Positions 10,014 through 23,696 of a DNA stretch of 23,696 nt are shown piece after piece (the stretch's first letter is position 1; every line of letters begins with the position of its first letter). Below the pieces are notes generated by a model that worked only from the letters and a program-made list of their open reading frames with translations, searched no databases and was not told where the DNA came from. The stretch is from Hyphomicrobiales bacterium. Its GTDB lineage: Bacteria > Pseudomonadota > Alphaproteobacteria > Rhizobiales > BM303. The stretch lies in NCBI GenBank assembly GCA_002869085.1, contig PKTQ01000122.1, positions 1 to 23,696 on the forward strand. Direction: 5' to 3'. The translations under genes were made by a program, and so were the position numbers.

Positions 10014-12062
10014 ATGCCGAAACTGACCATTGACGGCATCGAGATCGAGGTTGAGAACGGCATGACCGTTCTGCAGGCCTGTGAGGAGGCGGGGGTCGAG
10101 ATTCCGCGTTTCTGCTATCACGAGCGCCTGTCGATTGCCGGCAATTGCCGCATGTGCCTCGTGGAGATCGAAAAAATGCCCAAGCTGGCGGCGAGCTGCG
10201 CCATGCCGGCGGGCGAGGGCATGGTGGTGCATACCCGCTCGGACAAGGTGCGCCGCGCCCGTAACAATGTGATGGAATTCCAGCTGATCAACCATCCGCT
10301 CGACTGCCCGATCTGCGATCAGGGCGGGGAATGCGATTTGCAGGATGAGGCGATGGCCTATGGGCTGGGCGAAGGCCGGTTCACCGAGGATAAGCACGCC
10401 TTCGAGGCCAAGCATATGGGGCCGCTCATCAAGACCATGATGAACCGCTGCATCCATTGCACACGCTGCGTGCGCTTCATCGCCGAGATCGCCGGCACCG
10501 AGGAAATGGGCGCCACCGGGCGCGGCGGCTATACCGAAATCATGACCTATCTGCAGAGCGCGATCACCTCGGAACTGTCGGGCAATGTGATCGATCTGTG
10601 CCCGGTGGGGGCGCTGACCTCGCGGCCTTATGCGTTCTCGGCCCGGCCATGGGAGCTGCGCAAGACCGAAAGCGTCGATGTGATGGACGCGGTCGGCAGC
10701 AATATCCGGGTCGACAGCCGCGGAGCGGCGGTGATGCGGGTGATGCCGCGCAATCATGACGATGTGAATGAAGAATGGCTGGCCGACCGCAGCCGTTTCA
10801 TCTGGGACGGGCTGAAATCGCGCCGTCTCGACCGGCCTTATGTGCGCAAGGACGGCCAATTGGTGGAAGCGGACTGGGACGAGGCGCTGGCGCTGGTGGC
10901 TGAAAAGCTCAAAAGCACCGATGGGGCCCGCATCGGCGCCATTGCCGGCGATCTTTGCGCCGCCGAGGAAATGTTCGCGCTGAAAGGTCTGATGGCGGGT
11001 CTCGGCGCGGCGAGCCTCGATTGCCGCCAGGACGGGGCGGCGCTCGAGCCATCAGCGGGCCGGGCGGGATATCTTTTCAATCCGGGCATTGCCGGCATCG
11101 AGGAGGCCGATGCGCTGATGCTGATCGGCGCCAATCCGAGGCGGGATGCACCGGTGCTGAATGCGCGTATCCGCAAGCGCTGGCTGCGCGGCGGGTTTGA
11201 AGTGGGGCTGATCGGGGAAAATGCCGATCTGACCTATGACACCACCCATCTGGGCGCCGGGCCGGACAGTCTGGCGGCGCTGATTGATGATGAGAATTAT
11301 GCCGGACAATCCGAACATCCGATGGTGATTGTCGGGGCCGATGCGCTGGCGCGCCCTGATGGGGCGGCGGTGCTGGCGCTGGCGGCGAAATTCGCCCTGA
11401 AACGGGGCGCGATCAAACCGGACTGGAACGGCTTTGCGGTGCTGCACAATGCGGCCTCGCGGGTGGCCGGGCTTGATCTCGGCCTCACGCCGGGAGCGGG
11501 CGGCCAGGACGCGGCGGCGATGGTTTCGGGCGGGGTTGATGTTCTTTATCTGCTGGGCGCCGATGAAATCGATATGAGCGGGCTTGGCGAGACCTTCGTC
11601 ATTTACCAGGGCAGCCACGGCGATGCGGGCGCGCACCGGGCCGATGTGATCCTGCCGGGGGCGGCCTATACGGAAAAGGACGGCATTTACGTCAATACCG
11701 AAGGTAGGGCCCAGAGCGGGCGCCGGGCGGTGATGCCGCCGGGCGAGGCGCGCGAGGACTGGAAGATTATCCGGGCGCTGTCCGGGGCATTGGGCGCCGC
11801 CTTGCCCTATGACACGCTTGAGGAGCTGCGCGCCGCCATGTTCCAGGCCGCGCCGGTGCTGGCCGAGCTCGACAGCGTGCCGCAAGCCGATGCGGGCGCC
11901 GTCCAGACGCTGGCCGGGCAGGGGGGTAGCCCCTCATCGGAGCCGTTCAGGGGCGGCGCCAATCATTATCTGGTCAATCCGATCCTGCGGGCGTCGAAAA
12001 CCATGCATGACTGCGTCGCCGCGAGCGAGACAGAACAGGAGGCAACGGGTACTGATGCTTGA
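10014..12062 (+). CDS. nuoG: NADH-quinone oxidoreductase subunit G (75 kDa)
   Basis: [52 protein letters not shown] and the Fe-S motifs [14 protein letters not shown] and [10 protein letters not shown] are canonical. 682 aa. Confidence 0.95.
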
Positions 12063-19449: not shown

Positions 19450-20220
19450 ATGCCCGATGACCCTATCCTGCCGGCCGGCTCTGCATTAGCCCGTTTCGAC
19501 GAGATCGATTCCACCAATTCCGAAGCCTTGCGGCGCGCGCCGCAAGAAGGGCCGCTCTGGGTCTGGGCCAGGGTCCAGACCAAGGGGCGCGGCCGCCAGG
19601 GGCGGGTATGGGCCTCGGGGCGCGGCAATCTTTATGCCTCGCTGCTGCTGCCGGTGGATTTCGAGCCGGCCTTGACGCCGCAGGTCTCCTTCGTGGCGGC
19701 GCTGGCGGTGCATGACACGGCGGCGCAATTGTTAGGGAAGGGCGATCCGTCGGACCGGCTGAAGTTGAAATGGCCGAATGATGTGCTGCTCGGCGGGGCG
19801 AAGATTGCCGGCATCCTGCTGGAAGGCGCCTCGAGCGGCGCGGCGCGGGGGGCGGTGGCCATCGGCTGCGGCATTAATCTCGCCCATCACCCCGAACTCG
19901 ACGAGCGCAAGGCGACCTCGCTGGGGGCCTATGGATGCGAAGTGGAAGCCGGCGCGGCGCTCAGCGTGCTGGCGGCGGCGATGCAGGCCCGGCTCGGGCA
20001 ATGGCGCGGCGGGGCGGGCTTTGCCGCCATTCGCGCCGACTGGCTGGCGCGGGTTGGCGGGCTTGGCGAGCGGGTGGAGATCCGGCTGCCGAATGAGCGC
20101 CGCAGCGGTATCTTTGCGACCATCGACAGCGGGGGTGCGCTGATTTTGCGACTTGATGACGGGCAGGAACAGCGTATTACCGCCGGGGACGTCTTTACAT
20201 TGGGGCATGACAGGGTATGA
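19450..20220 (+). CDS. birA: Biotin--[acetyl-CoA-carboxylase] ligase, group I (no N-terminal DNA-binding domain)
   Basis: QTKGRGRQGRVWASGRGNLYASLLL (the GRGRxGRxW biotin-binding loop) and [19 protein letters not shown]. 256 aa. The position immediately after nuoN is typical of alphaproteobacteria. Confidence 0.85.
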   Translation: MPDDPILPAGSALARFDEIDSTNSEALRRAPQEGPLWVWARVQTKGRGRQGRVWASGRGNLYASLLLPVDFEPALTPQVSFVAALAVHDTAAQLLGKGDPSDRLKLKWPNDVLLGGAKIAGILLEGASSGAARGAVAIGCGINLAHHPELDERKATSLGAYGCEVEAGAALSVLAAAMQARLGQWRGGAGFAAIRADWLARVGGLGERVEIRLPNERRSGIFATIDSGGALILRLDDGQEQRITAGDVFTLGHDRV

Positions 20221-21902
20221 GCGGCAAACGCAAAGCCGGACAGGACGAATTGGTATTTCTGCCTTTGGGCGGGGCCGGCGAGATCGGCATGAATCTCTAT
20301 CTCTATGGCCTGGGGCCGGCCTCGGCGCGGCAATGGATCATCGTCGATCTCGGCATCAGCTTTCCGGGGCCGGAACTGCCGGGGATCGAGGTGGTGATGC
20401 CGGACACGGCGTTTCTGGAGCAGATGGACGGGGAATTGCTGGCCATCGTGCTGACCCATGCCCATGAGGATCATTACGGCGCCATTCCCTATTTGTGGCC
20501 GCGCCTGAAGGTGCCGGTCTATGCCACGGCGTTTTCGGCCGGGCTGCTGCGGATGAAACTGCATGAAACCGGCCTTGAGGACGAGGTGCCGGTGCATCTG
20601 CTGCATCAGGGCGAGCGCTTTAAGATCGGGCCGTTCGATCTTGAGCTGATCACCGTCACCCATTCCATCCCCGAGCCCAATGCCCTGGCGATCCGCACCC
20701 GGCAAGGCAATGTGCTGCATAGCGGCGATTGGCGCATCGATCCCGACCCTGTGGTGGGGGACAAGTTCGACGAGGCCCGCATGCGCGCCTTCGGCGCCGA
20801 GGGCTGCCGGGCGGTGATCTGCGATTCCACCAATATATTAAGCTCGCGGCAGGCGCCGTCCGAGGCTGAGATCGGTAAGAACCTGGCCAAGCTGGTGGCC
20901 GAGGCCGAGGGGCGGGTGGCGATCACCACCTTTGCGTCCAATGTGGGGCGCATCCTGTCGGTGATGCGGGCGACCAAGGCGGCGGGGCGGCATCTGGTGC
21001 TGGCCGGGCGCAGCATGCATAAATTCGTGGCGCTGGCGCGCGAGACCGGCCTCATTCCGCAACAGGGCGAATTGCTCAGCGAGGATGATTACGGCTTTCT
21101 GCCGCGCGAAAAGGTGGTGCTGCTATGCACGGGCAGTCAGGGCGAGGCGCGGGCGGCGCTGTCGCGCATCGCGTCGGGCAGCCATCCGCGCATCACCCTC
21201 AATAAGGGCGATACGGTGATTTTCTCGTCCAAGACCATCCCCGGCAATGAAAAAGAGATCGGCGCGGTGGAGAACAATCTGGCGGCGCTGGGGATCAAGA
21301 CCATCCATGGCAGCGCCGATTTCCCGGTCCATGTCACCGGCCATCCCTATTGCAACGAGGTCGAGCGGCTGTATGACATGCTGAAGCCTGAAGCCGCGAT
21401 CCCGATCCATGGCGAAACCCTGCATCTGGCCACCCATGCCGAGCGCGCCCGGGAATGGGGGGTGAAAGAGACGGTGATGGCCCGCAATGGCGATCTGGTG
21501 CGGATTGCGCCGGGGAAGCTGGAGATTTGCGGGGCGGCGCCGGCCGGGCGGCTATGCCTTGACGGCAAGATAACCGTGCCGGCCGAAAACGGGCCGTTGC
21601 GGATCCGGCGGCGGCTCAACTTTGCCGGCGCGGTGGTGGTGTTTCTGGCCATCGACAAGCGCGGCGCGCTCGCCGACGATCCGCTGTTCGAGGTCATGGG
21701 GCTGCCGGAGCGGGACGATTATGGCGATGCCATGGAGGATGTGATATTCGAGGCCATTGACGAGGCGCTGGACGTTGTGCCGCGCAAAAGGCGCCAGAAC
21801 ACCGATACGCTGGCCGAGACCGTGCGCCGTTCGGTGCGCCGGGCGGTGCGCGAGGCCTGGGGCAAGAAGACCGAATGCCGGGTGCAGATCGCGCGGGTCT
21901 GA
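20217..21902 (+). CDS. rnj: Ribonuclease J-type metallo-beta-lactamase fold RNA hydrolase
   Basis: The VLTHAHEDHYGAIPYL HxHxDH zinc motif, a beta-CASP-like central region and a 561-aa length fit RNase J. The ATG overlaps the birA stop (ATGA). Confidence 0.8.
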   Translation: MSGKRKAGQDELVFLPLGGAGEIGMNLYLYGLGPASARQWIIVDLGISFPGPELPGIEVVMPDTAFLEQMDGELLAIVLTHAHEDHYGAIPYLWPRLKVPVYATAFSAGLLRMKLHETGLEDEVPVHLLHQGERFKIGPFDLELITVTHSIPEPNALAIRTRQGNVLHSGDWRIDPDPVVGDKFDEARMRAFGAEGCRAVICDSTNILSSRQAPSEAEIGKNLAKLVAEAEGRVAITTFASNVGRILSVMRATKAAGRHLVLAGRSMHKFVALARETGLIPQQGELLSEDDYGFLPREKVVLLCTGSQGEARAALSRIASGSHPRITLNKGDTVIFSSKTIPGNEKEIGAVENNLAALGIKTIHGSADFPVHVTGHPYCNEVERLYDMLKPEAAIPIHGETLHLATHAERAREWGVKETVMARNGDLVRIAPGKLEICGAAPAGRLCLDGKITVPAENGPLRIRRRLNFAGAVVVFLAIDKRGALADDPLFEVMGLPERDDYGDAMEDVIFEAIDEALDVVPRKRRQNTDTLAETVRRSVRRAVREAWGKKTECRVQIARV

Positions 21903-21966
21903 GCCGCCCCGGCCGAACAGGGGCATGCGCAGGCAGTAGCTGGCCTTTGCCGGGAAAGGAGACATC

Positions 21967-22371
21967 ATGATCGGACAACTCAACCATGTCGCCATTGTGG
22001 TGCCGGATCTGGCGGCGGCGGCGGCGTTTTACGCCGAGGCGCTGGGCGCGAGCGTTTCGGCGCCCCATGATCTGCCCGAGCATGGGGTGACGACGGTGTT
22101 TGTGGAACTGCCCAATACCAAGATTGAATTGCTGCACCCGCTGGGGGCGGACTCACCGATTGCCGGTTTTCTGGCCAAGAACCCGGCCGGCGGCATGCAC
22201 CATGTCTGTTACGAGGTCGAGGATATCATCGCGGCGTGCGATCATCTGGTGGCTTCCGGGGTGCGGGTGCTGGGGGACGGCGAGCCCAAGACCGGAGCCC
22301 ATGGCAAGCCGGTGCTGTTCCTGCATCCCAAAGACGGGCTCGGCACGCTGATCGAGCTTGAACAGGCCTGA
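21967..22371 (+). CDS. mce: Methylmalonyl-CoA epimerase (VOC/glyoxalase-fold)
   Basis: 134 aa. LNHVAIVVPDLAAAAAFY...TKIELLHPLG...GGMHHVCYEVEDI...GKPVLFLHPKD..GTLIELEQ closely follows the characteristic epimerase pattern. A strong aaggag RBS precedes it. Confidence 0.85.
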   Translation: MIGQLNHVAIVVPDLAAAAAFYAEALGASVSAPHDLPEHGVTTVFVELPNTKIELLHPLGADSPIAGFLAKNPAGGMHHVCYEVEDIIAACDHLVASGVRVLGDGEPKTGAHGKPVLFLHPKDGLGTLIELEQA

Positions 22372-22393
22372 CCGGGCCCGCGCCTGACCATAT

Positions 22394-23696
22394 TCACCGC
22401 GATCTGAAGGTCTTGCTGCCGAATTTGCTGCCAAACGAGTCATGTACGCCGCCCGGGGCTTTGACCGGCGGTTTGGGCTTCGGGTTCGGCTTGGGCTTGC
22501 CGGCGGGGATGCCGGTGCGCGGCAGGCAGAACGCCCGCCCGGGGATGCACCTGGCCGCTTCGCCGCGCGGTTTGCAGGGGCGCATGCCGCGCGGGCAGAT
22601 CATGCCCTGGCTGCAGCTCTGCCGGGCGGGAGCGAAACAGCCGCCCCGGCCGAAGCGCCCGGGGGCGCAGAGACGGCGCGGCGGCGCGCATCGGCCACCG
22701 GTGGCCGTCCCCGCCGGTCTGGCGCGGGAGGTGGCGGGCTGATGGCGCGAAGAGGGCGCGGTGCGATGAAAATTCTGCAAGGGCGTATTGGCCTGTGGGC
22801 GCTGGGGTGACAGGCACAGCCCATTGGCGGGGATGCAGCGCGGGCGCTGGCCGGCGATCCGGCAAACCCTGAACCCGGCCGGGCAGACAAGGCCGCCGGC
22901 GCATCTTTGCGCGCCGGGCAGGAAACAGCGCCCGGGGCCATGGATGCCGGGCGGGCACCAGCGCTGGGGCGGCCGACAGCGCGAGACGGGCTGGGTGACG
23001 GCTGGGCGCGGCGGTACCACCGCTCCGGAGTTCGCCGGATTATGGGCGCGCGAGGCCCCAGTCTGATGGAAGCGGCTGAGGGCGGGCGCATGCACGGGCC
23101 GGCAGCTCTGTCCGCCCGGGATGCAGGAGGCCCGCTGGCCGGGGCGCTTGCAGGGCTTGAACCCGGCGGGGCAGACCATACCCTGGCCGCATCTTTGCGC
23201 GCCGGGCAGATAGCAGCGCCCGGGGCCATAGGCGCCGGCCGGACACCATCTTTGCGGTAGCCGGCAGCGGGGTTGCGGTCGCGGCTGCGGGATGGTCTGG
23301 GGCGGCGGGGCCTGTTTTTTCAGGCGCGAGCGACAGCGCTCGCCCGGGCGGGCGCAATAGGCAGGCTCGCCGGGCAGTTTGCAGAAATATGATCCGCGCC
23401 AGCACACCAGCCCCTTGATGCAGATTTGCTGCGGCGTGATGCAGCCGCCATTGCCATTAGCACCGCGCGGGCAATAGGTGCGGCCGGGGCGGCAAGGCGA
23501 GCCGGGCAGCTGTTTGCGGGGCGGCTTTATGCGCGGCGGCTTTATGCGTGGCGGCTTTATGCGTGCCGGCTGTATGCGGGGTGGCTGTATGCGGGGCGGG
23601 GGTGCGGTCTGGTACTTGGCCCTCGCGGCGGCCTGGATGCGGCGGGCCTTGGCGCAATTGCCGAACTGCCAGCATTCGAGCAGGGCATTGATGCGC
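22394..23696 (-). CDS. Cysteine/proline/glycine/arginine-rich modular repeat protein of unknown family, 5'-truncated by the window edge
   Basis: The minus-strand frame is open for 434 codons, from the TGA (complement of 22394-22396) to the window end. It contains at least three about 96-aa modules with eight positionally conserved Cys each (C..PQRWCP.G..GPGRC.LPGAQRC..G.VCPAGF..C....GQR..CIP....C). A fourth, more diverged module and PRIKP/PRIQP pentapeptide repeats lie upstream, and a Lys/Pro-rich tail (KPKPNPKPKPPVKAP) lies at the C-terminus. The ORF-track start (GTG at 23405-23407) is internal. Confidence 0.7.
   Translation of the reverse strand, partial: RINALLECWQFGNCAKARRIQAAARAKYQTAPPPRIQPPRIQPARIKPPRIKPPRIKPPRKQLPGSPCRPGRTYCPRGANGNGGCITPQQICIKGLVCWRGSYFCKLPGEPAYCARPGERCRSRLKKQAPPPQTIPQPRPQPRCRLPQRWCPAGAYGPGRCYLPGAQRCGQGMVCPAGFKPCKRPGQRASCIPGGQSCRPVHAPALSRFHQTGASRAHNPANSGAVVPPRPAVTQPVSRCRPPQRWCPPGIHGPGRCFLPGAQRCAGGLVCPAGFRVCRIAGQRPRCIPANGLCLSPQRPQANTPLQNFHRTAPSSRHQPATSRARPAGTATGGRCAPPRRLCAPGRFGRGGCFAPARQSCSQGMICPRGMRPCKPRGEAARCIPGRAFCLPRTGIPAGKPKPNPKPKPPVKAPGGVHDSFGSKFGSKTFRSR
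22560..23480. repeat. About 288-bp tandem direct repeats (3 clear copies plus 1 degenerate) inside the Cys-rich gene
   Basis: Near-identical blocks recur about 288 nt apart: gaacccggc(c/g)gggcagac...gcatctttgcgcgccgggcag(g/a)(a/t)a(a/g)cagcgcccggggccat(g/a)g at about 22871 and 23159, with a third diverged copy near 22583. Confidence 0.75.
23506..23598. repeat. 15-nt tandem microsatellite (consensus ggcggctttatgcgY, about 6 copies)
   Basis: gcggctttatgcgcg / gcggctttatgcgtg / gcggctttatgcgtg / ccggctgtatgcggg / gtggctgtatgcggg. The unit is a multiple of 3 and lies inside the coding frame, where it encodes PRIKP/PRIQP on the minus strand. Confidence 0.8.

What the first reader, a model, noticed from the sequence alone, without database searches (positions are those of the whole stretch)
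22394..23696. Unclassified eight-cysteine modular repeat protein at the edge of a core-gene block
A minus-strand frame stays open for 434 codons to the window edge. It encodes tandem modules of about 96 aa. Each module has eight cysteines in a fixed spacing: C-x5-C-P-x-G-x2-G-x-G-R-C-x-L-P-G-A-Q-R-C-x2-G-x-V-C-P-A-G-F-x2-C-K/R-x2-G-Q-R-x2-C-I-P-x3-C. A Pro/Arg/Thr-rich linker follows each module, and the protein ends in a Lys-Pro tail (KPKPNPKPKPPVKAP). By eye, composition is roughly 9-10% Cys with high Pro, Gly and Arg. Conservation of the Cys positions across diverged DNA copies argues for selection on a disulfide-rich or metal-binding fold. The eight-Cys spacing and the C-P-x-G-F segment loosely recall extracellular EGF/laminin-EGF-like or granulin-like modules more than any common bacterial domain. 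I cannot place it in a known family. It sits convergently next to housekeeping genes (mce, rnj) and does not look recently acquired, since its GC content matches the rest of the window. It is the strongest candidate in the window for an undescribed secreted or surface protein.
Basis: partly seen in the sequence, partly recalled or inferred. Interest (0 to 1): 0.75.

Follow-up and report, generated by a model that had tools for sequence, protein, structure and literature searches.

The report
Secreted cysteine-rich repeat protein, undescribed family
This is a real, conserved gene for an exported, very positively charged bacterial protein built from four small disulfide-stapled modules on proline-rich linkers; neither its module nor its N-terminal domain is in any curated family, and its function has to be inferred.

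Summary
It carries four 54-55-aa modules with eight cysteines each, spaced C-x6-C-x9-C-x6/7-C-x5-C-x6-C-x8-C-x6-C.

The gene is real. Its GC3 equals that of its neighbours. dN/dS is about 0.14 in the modules and 0.35 in the linkers. Syntenic orthologues in divergent Hyphomicrobiales MAGs keep every module cysteine.

The missing N-terminus lies on another contig of the same MAG (full length 541 aa). It supplies a Sec-type signal peptide and a helical domain.

A search of 1.84 billion representatives finds about 30 small secreted bacterial proteins built from the same 4-Cys unit. It also finds about 45 proteins that share the N-terminal domain, nine of which fuse it to lectin- or adhesion-type domains.

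Cys 1 and Cys 3 of the unit are lost together in 21 units, which implies 1-3 and 2-4 disulfides.

Best reading: an exported, polycationic (net +73), disulfide-rich beads-on-a-string binding or matrix protein. The function is inferred only. GenBank annotates it as "hypothetical protein, partial".

The parts
22394..23695 (-). 3' part (433 codons plus stop) of the gene. It is deposited as PLX42248.1 'hypothetical protein C0605_05200, partial'. The full-length protein is 541 aa.
   Evidence: GC3 0.81; the only open frame; dN/dS
23612..23695 (-). Last 28 residues (RINALLECWQFGNCAKARRIQAAARAKY) of the N-terminal helical domain. They include its invariant C-x5-C pair. The rest of the domain and the signal peptide lie beyond the window edge.
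   Evidence: (C83 and C89 invariant in 43 sequences)
23495..23611 (-). Basic proline-rich spacer with RI(Q/K)P(P/A) pentapeptide repeats. It is encoded by a 15-nt tandem repeat (23504-23599, 6.4 copies) whose copy number differs between populations.
   Evidence: 15-nt indel against L001; 4 or 5 copies
23333..23494 (-). Cys module 1 (54 aa, 8 Cys)
23267..23332 (-). Linker 1 (22 aa, Pro/Gln/Arg/Lys-rich)
23102..23266 (-). Cys module 2 (55 aa, 8 Cys). This is the sequence modelled by AlphaFold: pLDDT 90, three beta-hairpins.
22979..23101 (-). Linker 2 (41 aa). It holds five of the seven SNPs that separate this gene from L001.
22814..22978 (-). Cys module 3 (55 aa, 8 Cys). It is 65% aa and 72% nt identical to module 2.
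22691..22813 (-). Linker 3 (41 aa). Its NFHRTAPSSRH motif is shared with linker 2 and with P0005.
22526..22690 (-). Cys module 4 (55 aa, 8 Cys)
22454..22498 (-). Lys-Pro stretch KPKPNPKPKPPVKAP, overlapping a 6-nt tandem repeat at 22473-22499
22397..22453 (-). C-terminal motif GGVHDSFGSKFGSKTFRSR. It is conserved in P0001, P0003, P0005 and the L007 copy. Stop codon at 22394-22396.
21967..22371 (+). Convergent neighbour, methylmalonyl-CoA epimerase. This is context only: 22 nt separate the two stop codons and no terminator-like site is found.

Best explanation
The window holds the 3' four-fifths of a genuine, vertically inherited gene of an uncultured marine Hyphomicrobiales lineage. It encodes a 541-aa exported protein.

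Shown:
- The domain order is a Sec-type signal peptide, a roughly 100-aa helical domain with one conserved C-x5-C pair, a basic Pro-rich pentapeptide-repeat spacer, four 8-Cys modules separated by Pro/Arg-rich linkers, a Lys-Pro stretch and a short conserved C-terminal motif.
- Each module is two 4-Cys units: unit A (C-x6-C-x9-C-x6/7-C, with the core CPxGxxGxGGC[YF]) and a cap unit B (C-x6-C-x8-C-x6-C).
- The same units build a rare family of small secreted bacterial proteins with the grammar (A)n-B.

Inferred:
- In the oxidising periplasm each unit forms two disulfides, 1-3 and 2-4. This gives four disulfides per module, stapling three stacked beta-hairpins into a rigid bead.
- The linkers are extended and disordered, so the mature protein is a polycationic (net about +75) beads-on-a-string molecule.

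Proposed mechanism (inference): the four rigid beads act as multivalent binding modules for an anionic polymer or surface. Candidates are envelope or extracellular polysaccharide, LPS, eDNA or mineral. The cationic linkers add electrostatic avidity. The N-terminal helical domain is a shared docking or assembly module, since in other proteins it carries WSC, PAN, SUEL-lectin, VWA, PKD or RTX domains in the position the Cys modules occupy here.

My confidence is about 0.85 for 'real, exported, disulfide-rich modular protein of an undescribed family' and about 0.3 for the binding or matrix function. The score given is a blend of the two.
For: Real gene: the only open frame of six, and GC3 0.81, equal to the neighbours. 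dN/dS against the L013 orthologue is 0.135 in the modules and 0.35 elsewhere. Orthologues in four other assemblies sit in the same position next to mce-rnj-birA-nuoN. Every module Cys is invariant at 41-46% identity.

Exported: the N-termini of P0001, P0086, P0089, P0002, P0003 and P0004 have a basic n-region, a hydrophobic core and an A-x-A/VxA cleavage motif followed by Q. Mature proteins have even Cys counts.

Disulfides rather than metal sites: of 131 units in 80 proteins, 96 have all four Cys. Another 21 have lost Cys 1 and Cys 3 together, replaced by V/Y/F and I/A/T/L, while keeping Cys 2 and Cys 4. Only one unit breaks the pairing.

Family: about 30 proteins carrying the unit, mostly small with signal peptides, plus about 45 proteins with the N-terminal domain.

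Binding role by architecture: identifiable fusion partners of the N-terminal domain are WSC (2), PAN (2), SUEL lectin (2), VWA (1), RTX (1) and PKD (1). The unit also occurs in a 1024-aa DUF11/SBBP surface-type protein.

Charge: net +73 to +83 and pI 9.8-11.5 in the large orthologues.
Against: - No binding, localisation or expression data exist.
- No conserved operon partner was seen in any context examined.
- The signal peptide was judged by eye, because no SignalP tool was available.
- Model coordinates could not be read, so the disulfide pairs rest on the co-loss pattern alone.
- Only 9 of the 45 N-domain proteins have an identifiable partner domain, so the architectural argument is thin.
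- The extreme positive charge is specific to this orthologue group and is not a property of the whole repeat family.
- In two assemblies the gene is frameshifted (L007) or 5'-truncated (L013). It may therefore be dispensable, or those assemblies may be faulty.
Confidence: 0.55

Rival explanations
1. It is a polyprotein precursor. Proteases cut the Pro/Arg-rich linkers and release four ~55-aa cationic disulfide-rich peptides, as progranulin releases granulins. These peptides would act as antimicrobial, defensin-like or signalling peptides.
For: The beads-on-a-string layout has long, fast-evolving linkers rich in Arg/Lys. Distant relatives are free-standing 84-165-aa secreted basic proteins of 2-4 units, which shows the unit works without the N-terminal domain or the linkers. 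The weak fold match is to granulin.
Against: No conserved dibasic or other processing motif flanks the modules in the orthologue alignment. No immunity, transporter or protease gene is linked. Linker motifs such as NFHRTAPSSRH and the C-terminal motif are themselves conserved between this genome and P0005, which argues that the linkers are more than spacers to be discarded. Most distant members have only mild net charge.
Confidence: 0.12
2. It is a periplasmic metal-binding, metallothionein-like protein. The cysteines would chelate Cu, Zn, Cd or Fe-S, which would be useful in metal-rich hydrothermal settings.
For: It has 34 Cys in 433 residues. One orthologue comes from a hydrothermal chimney metagenome of the Southwest Indian Ridge (PMC9769843).
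Against: The modules have no CxC, CxxC or CC clusters; all gaps are 5-9 residues. Cysteines are lost in specific pairs and replaced by hydrophobic residues, as expected for disulfides. The protein has a Sec signal peptide and goes to an oxidising compartment. AlphaFold gives a confident beta-hairpin fold without any ligand. Cys counts are even in all mature orthologues.
Confidence: 0.07
3. It is a eukaryote-derived EGF, laminin-EGF, granulin or TNFR-type module acquired by horizontal transfer, a 'eukaryote-like protein'.
For: It is a disulfide-rich extracellular-type module. The weak structural neighbours are all eukaryotic: granulin, TNFR cysteine-rich domains, EGF and VWF.
Against: No Pfam hit to any of these families appears even at E<=10. 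hhalign against granulin A finds nothing. The four looked-up loci of distant relatives (P0006, P0019, P0054, P0014) are bacterial gene neighbourhoods, and most repeat-family members begin with signal-peptide-like N-termini. GC3 is native. Synteny is conserved across family-level divergence. The eukaryotic CysRRep repeat of Daugavet et al. has a different pattern that ends in CC.
Confidence: 0.05
4. It is not a gene: a chance open frame in GC-rich DNA, or the antisense shadow of another gene.
For: Long spurious ORFs are common at 62-70% GC. Many overlapping ORFs are listed across the window.
Against: All five other frames contain stops. GC3 is 0.81. dN/dS is well below 1. The full-length orthologues have signal peptides. 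All 32 module Cys are kept although the module DNA copies are 55-72% identical. A GAGGG ribosome-binding site precedes the ATG in L001.
Confidence: 0.01

Closest known systems
Granulin / progranulin (Pfam PF00396; PDB 6cku, 2jye)
   Different: Granulin has 12 Cys including four CC doublets. This module has 8 single Cys with 5-9-residue gaps. There is no Pfam or hhalign similarity. The origin is bacterial. No evidence of processing exists.
TNF-receptor cysteine-rich domains (B2-type modules), furin-like repeats and laminin-type EGF
   Same: These are units of roughly 25 residues with two disulfides in 1-3/2-4 topology, concatenated into elongated rigid rods used for binding (from my knowledge of these families). 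DR6, DcR3, TNFR2, HER3 and EGF structures are the top Foldseek rows.
   Different: All of those matches are insignificant (E>3, TM<0.33). No Pfam hit is found. The second half of laminin-EGF pairs 5-6/7-8, whereas 5-7/6-8 is inferred here.
SCREPs, the 'secreted cysteine-rich repeat proteins' architecture class (Maxwell et al. 2018, PMC6262176)
   Same: The protein has a signal peptide plus tandem, independently folded disulfide-rich domains with internal homology. That paper notes many uncharacterised bacterial examples.
   Different: SCREP is an architectural label, not a homologous family. The characterised members are animal toxins and protease inhibitors (ICK, Kunitz, WAP). Here the domain type is undescribed, the linkers are very long and an extra N-terminal domain is present.
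Lustrin A and barnacle or mussel cement-type matrix proteins (from my knowledge, not tested)
   Same: They alternate Cys-rich modules with Pro-rich linkers and carry basic regions. They serve as extracellular adhesive or elastomeric matrix proteins in marine settings.
   Different: There is no sequence relationship: Pfam, which includes Lustrin_cystein, gave no hit. They are animal proteins. This is an analogy of composition and architecture only.
CysRRep / rusticalin-type cysteine-rich repeats (Daugavet et al. 2020 PMC7379824; bioRxiv 10.64898/2026.06.07.730663)
   Same: It is a short secreted Cys repeat that precedes other domains and has been discussed for bacteria and eukaryotes.
   Different: Its pattern is Cx6-9Cx5-7Cx8-11Cx7-8CC with a terminal CC doublet, and it is almost exclusively eukaryotic. 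It is not the same repeat.

Membership tests
Granulin (PF00396) | 12-Cys motif with four CC doublets | tested here: not met
   All module Cys are single and the gaps are 5-9 residues. There is no CC anywhere.
Granulin (PF00396) | Significant match to the family profile or a member sequence | tested here: not met
   Pfam gives 0 families at E<=10 for the protein, and the 38 modules scanned singly give no Granulin hit.
Granulin (PF00396) | Beta-hairpin-stack fold | tested here: inconclusive
EGF / laminin-type EGF | Profile match, with a CxC element and 1-3, 2-4, 5-6 (7-8) disulfides | tested here: not met
   No Pfam EGF or Laminin_EGF hit except two single-module hits at E>1. There is no CxC. 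The inferred pairing of the second half is 5-7/6-8.
TNFR cysteine-rich domain | Profile or fold match | tested here: not met
   No Pfam hit. Foldseek to DR6, DcR3 and TNFR2 gives E 3-9 and TM about 0.27.
SCREP architecture class | N-terminal secretion signal | tested here: met
   Read directly from the full-length sequences: MPHPAVNGPRLFPAVLTALAAACLLAMAGAALA|QS, with equivalents in P0002-P0004. No SignalP run was possible.
SCREP architecture class | Two or more tandem homologous Cys-rich domains | tested here: met
   Four modules, 38-65% identical to each other.
SCREP architecture class | Cysteines form structural disulfides, not metal or catalytic sites | tested here: inconclusive
   This is supported indirectly by the paired loss of Cys 1 and Cys 3 in 21 units and by even Cys counts. 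No chemistry or model coordinates were available.
Metallothionein-like metal binder | CxC / CxxC / CC clusters with little regular secondary structure | tested here: not met
   No such clusters occur in the window protein. The beta-hairpin model is confident.
CysRRep (Daugavet et al.) | Cx6-9Cx5-7Cx8-11Cx7-8CC spacing | tested here: not met
   The spacing differs and there is no terminal CC.
Undescribed bacterial (A)n-B Cys-repeat family (defined here) | Unit C-x6-C-x9-C-x6/7-C with core CPxGxxGxGGC[YF], repeated every 31 residues and closed by a C-x6-C-x7-9-C-x6-7-C cap | tested here: met
   The HMM search finds P0006, P0008, P0016, P0019, P0024, P0054 and others at E 1e-27 to 1e-4, with 2-7 matched stretches each. 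The spacing table and alignment A4 show 8 invariant Cys and 3 invariant Gly.
Undescribed N-terminal helical domain family (defined here) | Roughly 90-aa helical domain after a signal peptide, with consensus IENxVL..LP.P.GD...P.I.K.GL..WL..K...A....D....DRY.AF..C....DC..L..LQ and an invariant C-x5-C | tested here: met
   About 45 representative proteins match at E 1e-21 to 1e-4. Only the last 28 residues, including the C-x5-C, lie inside the window; the rest is seen in P0086 and P0089.

The most novel reading that the evidence does not exclude
The gene is the largest, most elaborated member of two previously undescribed bacterial domain families: a disulfide-laddered beta-hairpin 'CPxGxxGxGGCY' repeat and a helical N-terminal docking domain. 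It would work as a polycationic, multivalent surface cement or adhesin that glues cells of marine and hydrothermal Hyphomicrobiales to anionic exopolymers or mineral surfaces. That would make it a bacterial counterpart of animal Cys/Pro/Lys-rich underwater adhesive and matrix proteins.
Probability: 0.2. Interest if true: 0.6.

Novelty: new variant of a known kind. Interest (0 to 1): 0.4.

Why it matters
Secreted disulfide-rich repeat modules are a mainstay of eukaryotic extracellular biology (EGF, granulin, TNFR). They are poorly charted in bacteria. This locus gives a clean, conserved bacterial example whose module and N-terminal domain are both absent from Pfam and NCBIfam.

A testable disulfide map (1-3, 2-4 per unit) comes from evolution alone. 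The repeat grammar (A)n-B links about 30 otherwise orphan small secreted proteins. Defining the two families would turn a set of 'hypothetical proteins' into annotatable ones.

If the binding or adhesive role holds, the protein would point to how uncultured marine Hyphomicrobiales attach to surfaces. The practical pay-off is modest: the family is rare, restricted to uncultured lineages, and its function remains inferred.

Tried and rejected
1. Pfam and NCBIfam scans of the window protein, the full-length orthologues and the distant members found no family. Scanning 38 modules singly gave only scattered one-off weak hits: WAP 0.009, scytovirin 0.014, snake toxin 0.016. None is consistent, and none survives correction for 38 queries.
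2. I followed the scytovirin lectin lead. I dropped it.
3. PDB sequence searches with the protein and with profiles A2, A3 and A4 gave only insignificant hits: cyriotoxin 0.4, draxin 0.23.
4. Foldseek against the PDB gave nothing below E=3. The afdb50 library was unavailable.
6. I looked for functional partners in the gene neighbourhood across the orthologues and four distant relatives. The neighbours are housekeeping or unrelated genes and nothing is conserved. The 207-aa gene next to P0019 is not an N-domain protein.
7. The search for homologous proteins with module profile A4 returned only five short proteins with no names.
8. The literature gives the CysRRep/rusticalin repeat, which has a different pattern. 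The search for 'beta-hairpin stack' in prokaryotes returned nothing relevant.
9. The terminator and promoter scan around the 22-nt convergent gap found nothing.
10. Spurious ORF and recent horizontal acquisition were considered and rejected.
Full report
**1. The observation**

The coordinates as given are one base out of frame. In the correct frame, window:22394-23695 on the minus strand gives 433 residues and a stop, and stays open to the contig end. The other five frames of the same stretch contain 3-10 stops each. The frame has GC1/2/3 of 0.65/0.68/0.81. Its GC3 equals that of the flanking mce, rnj, birA and nuo genes (0.76-0.83). The raised GC of the region (0.70 against about 0.62) sits at codon position 2 and reflects the amino-acid composition.

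The protein fragment has 34 Cys (7.9%), P 17.1%, R 13.4%, G 11.3%, A 10.4% and only five acidic residues. Net charge is +73 and pI is 11.5.

Four modules occupy residues 68-121, 144-198, 240-294 and 336-390. Their spacing is C-x6-C-x9-C-x6/7-C-x5-C-x6-C-x8-C-x6-C. I checked the window coordinates of every part by translation. The module DNA copies are 55-72% identical and the proteins 38-65% identical, yet all 32 Cys are retained.

The first gap is x6, not x5. Cys is 7.9%, not 9-10%. The KP stretch is followed by 19 more conserved residues.

**2. It is a real gene, and the rest of it was recovered**

Only four proteins among 5.8 billion match the fragment. P0001 is 98% identical and full length (536 aa). 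Its contig L001 is 99.3% identical to window 19998-23696 and extends 2.7 kb further.

The exact-sequence look-up shows that the window is a GenBank MAG contig. There the fragment is PLX42248.1, 'MAG: hypothetical protein C0605_05200, partial [Hyphomicrobiales bacterium]'. The first 141 residues of the same gene sit at the edge of another contig of that MAG (PLX45625.1) and overlap the fragment by 38 residues. A 541-aa version lies on a 130-kb contig. The assembly broke next to a 15-nt tandem repeat (23504-23599). That repeat encodes RI(Q/K)P(P/A) pentapeptides, and its copy number differs between populations at 4 or 5.

Of the 11 SNPs between the window and L001, 7 fall in this gene, 5 of them in linker 2.

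Against the orthologue in L013, Nei-Gojobori dN/dS is 0.135 in the modules and 0.35 outside them. Against L002 and L004 it is 0.19-0.32. dS is close to saturation, so these values are approximate.

Orthologues P0002, P0003 and P0004 are 41-46% identical and come from uncultured Hyphomicrobiales or Alphaproteobacteria MAGs. One comes from a Southwest Indian Ridge hydrothermal chimney (PMC9769843). They lie in the same position: FAD monooxygenase gene, then this gene, then convergent mce, rnj, birA and nuoN-H. The neighbours are 75% (mce), 66% (rnj), 80% (nuoN) and 41-48% (birA) identical to those of the window. The gene has therefore been inherited vertically across roughly family-level divergence and evolves about as fast as birA. 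The neighbour identities were confirmed: TIGR03081 methylmalonyl-CoA epimerase above its cut-off, RNase J family, and BirA ligase.

**3. Anatomy of the full protein**

In order, the protein has:
- a signal peptide, MPHPAVNGPRLFPAVLTALAAACLLAMAGAALA|QS, read by eye, with equivalents in all orthologues;
- a helical domain of about 100 aa;
- the Pro-rich basic spacer;
- four modules here, and six 8-Cys modules (one of them carrying an extra Cys pair) in P0002 and P0003;
- Pro/Arg-rich linkers of 22-41 aa;
- the KP stretch;
- the motif GGVHDSFGSKFGSK.

Mature orthologues have even numbers of Cys. A GAGGG ribosome-binding site precedes the ATG.

**4. The module**

**5. Wider relatives**

An exhaustive HMM search of 1.84 billion cluster representatives with the orthologue alignment gave 78 hits at E<1e-3. 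They fall into two groups.

(i) About 30 proteins match the Cys modules. Most are 84-165 aa with signal peptides, for example P0016, P0019, P0024 and P0054. Some are larger: P0006 (373 aa), P0009, and P0048 (1024 aa, with DUF11 repeats). In these the repeating element is a 4-Cys unit of 31 residues with the form C-x6-C-P-x-G-x-x-G-x-G-G-C-[YF]-x7-C-x5. Arrays end with a cap, C-x6-C-x7-9-C-x6-7-C. The window's 8-Cys module is exactly one unit A plus one cap B.

Tabulating 131 units gives this picture. Ninety-six have all four Cys. Twenty-one units, in P0048, P0040, P0042, P0074, P0079, P0072 and P0009, have lost the first and third Cys together and kept the second and fourth. One unit has lost only the third. 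In the units checked by eye in P0040 and P0048, the position of the first Cys is occupied by V, Y or F. This co-loss implies disulfides 1-3 and 2-4 in each unit, hence C1-C3, C2-C4, C5-C7 and C6-C8 in the module. That is an inference. I could not read the model coordinates.

Gene neighbourhoods of P0006, P0019, P0054 and P0014 show no conserved partner.

**6. Interpretation**

Shown: a genuine, conserved, exported, modular Cys-rich protein made of two undescribed domain types.

Inferred: four disulfides per module, rigid beads on flexible polycationic linkers, and a multivalent binding or matrix role. The binding role rests on three points. The Cys modules occupy the position that lectin- or adhesion-type domains occupy in other N-domain proteins. 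The unit occurs in large surface-type proteins. The charge is extreme.

Rivals:
- A progranulin-like precursor of cationic peptides is possible, but no processing sites or linked functions were seen.
- A metal binder is disfavoured by the spacing, the paired loss and the oxidising compartment.
- A eukaryote-derived module is disfavoured because there is no sequence signal, GC3 is native and synteny is conserved.
- A spurious ORF is refuted.

**7. Novelty and score**

The architecture class, secreted cysteine-rich repeat proteins, is known and includes many unstudied bacterial cases (PMC6262176). The domain families here are not described, and the eukaryotic CysRRep repeat is different. This is a sound find for family curation and a reasonable candidate surface or matrix protein. 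It remains a rare hypothetical protein of uncultured bacteria with no experimental handle. I score interest at 0.4.

Noticed in passing
window 23504-23599 (-): An in-frame 15-nt tandem repeat (6.4 copies) encodes RI(Q/K)P(P/A) pentapeptides. Copy number differs between near-identical populations: 5 pentapeptides in the window and P0089, 4 in P0001 and P0087. The MAG contig ends about 100 nt beyond it, so the repeat probably broke the assembly.
   Followed up: partly
window edge at 23696; other contig of the same MAG (PLX45625.1, P0086): The gene is split over two contigs of the deposited MAG and annotated twice as 'hypothetical protein, partial'. The two fragments overlap by 38 residues and together give the 541-aa protein.
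   Followed up: yes
L007 9917-11848: The orthologue in the hydrothermal-chimney MAG is interrupted by a frameshift near 11119-11207. Its last module has lost several Cys. This is either a pseudogene or an assembly error.
   Followed up: partly
L013 2992-3693: A 233-aa orthologue (P0005) retains only the last two modules and the tail. It starts at a TTG, has no signal peptide, and has an Mrp/Mnh antiporter operon upstream instead of the usual FAD monooxygenase gene. This is a truncated copy or a chimeric contig.
   Followed up: partly
Proteins P0007, P0010-P0078 (not in the window); last 28 residues at window 23612-23695: The N-terminal helical domain with the invariant C-x5-C is itself an undescribed family of about 45 clusters. 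It is fused to WSC, PAN, SUEL-lectin, VWA, RTX or PKD domains in other bacteria.
   Followed up: partly
L001 855-2315; L004 8395-9869: Upstream, on the same strand as the Cys-rich gene, lie a zf-CHCC protein (82 aa) and an FAD-dependent aromatic-ring monooxygenase whose best NCBIfam match is 3-hydroxybenzoate 6-monooxygenase, below the cut-off. Only 91 nt separate the monooxygenase stop from the Cys-rich gene start, so co-transcription is possible.
   Followed up: no
L010 591-845: A small secreted protein with a Kazal-like Cys pattern (CTKEFRPVCG...YGNGCDAC) lies about 2 kb from the distant repeat-family member P0019.
   Followed up: no
window 22372-22393: Only 22 nt separate the convergent stop codons of mce and the Cys-rich gene. 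No terminator-like hairpin was detected there.
   Followed up: partly
P0002 224-277, P0003 234-287, P0004 226-279: One module of the longer orthologues has 10 Cys (…CKKGSCICKLPGVPKYCAPCGAIC), an extra pair inside the cap unit. This module and the one before it are absent from the window's protein.
   Followed up: no
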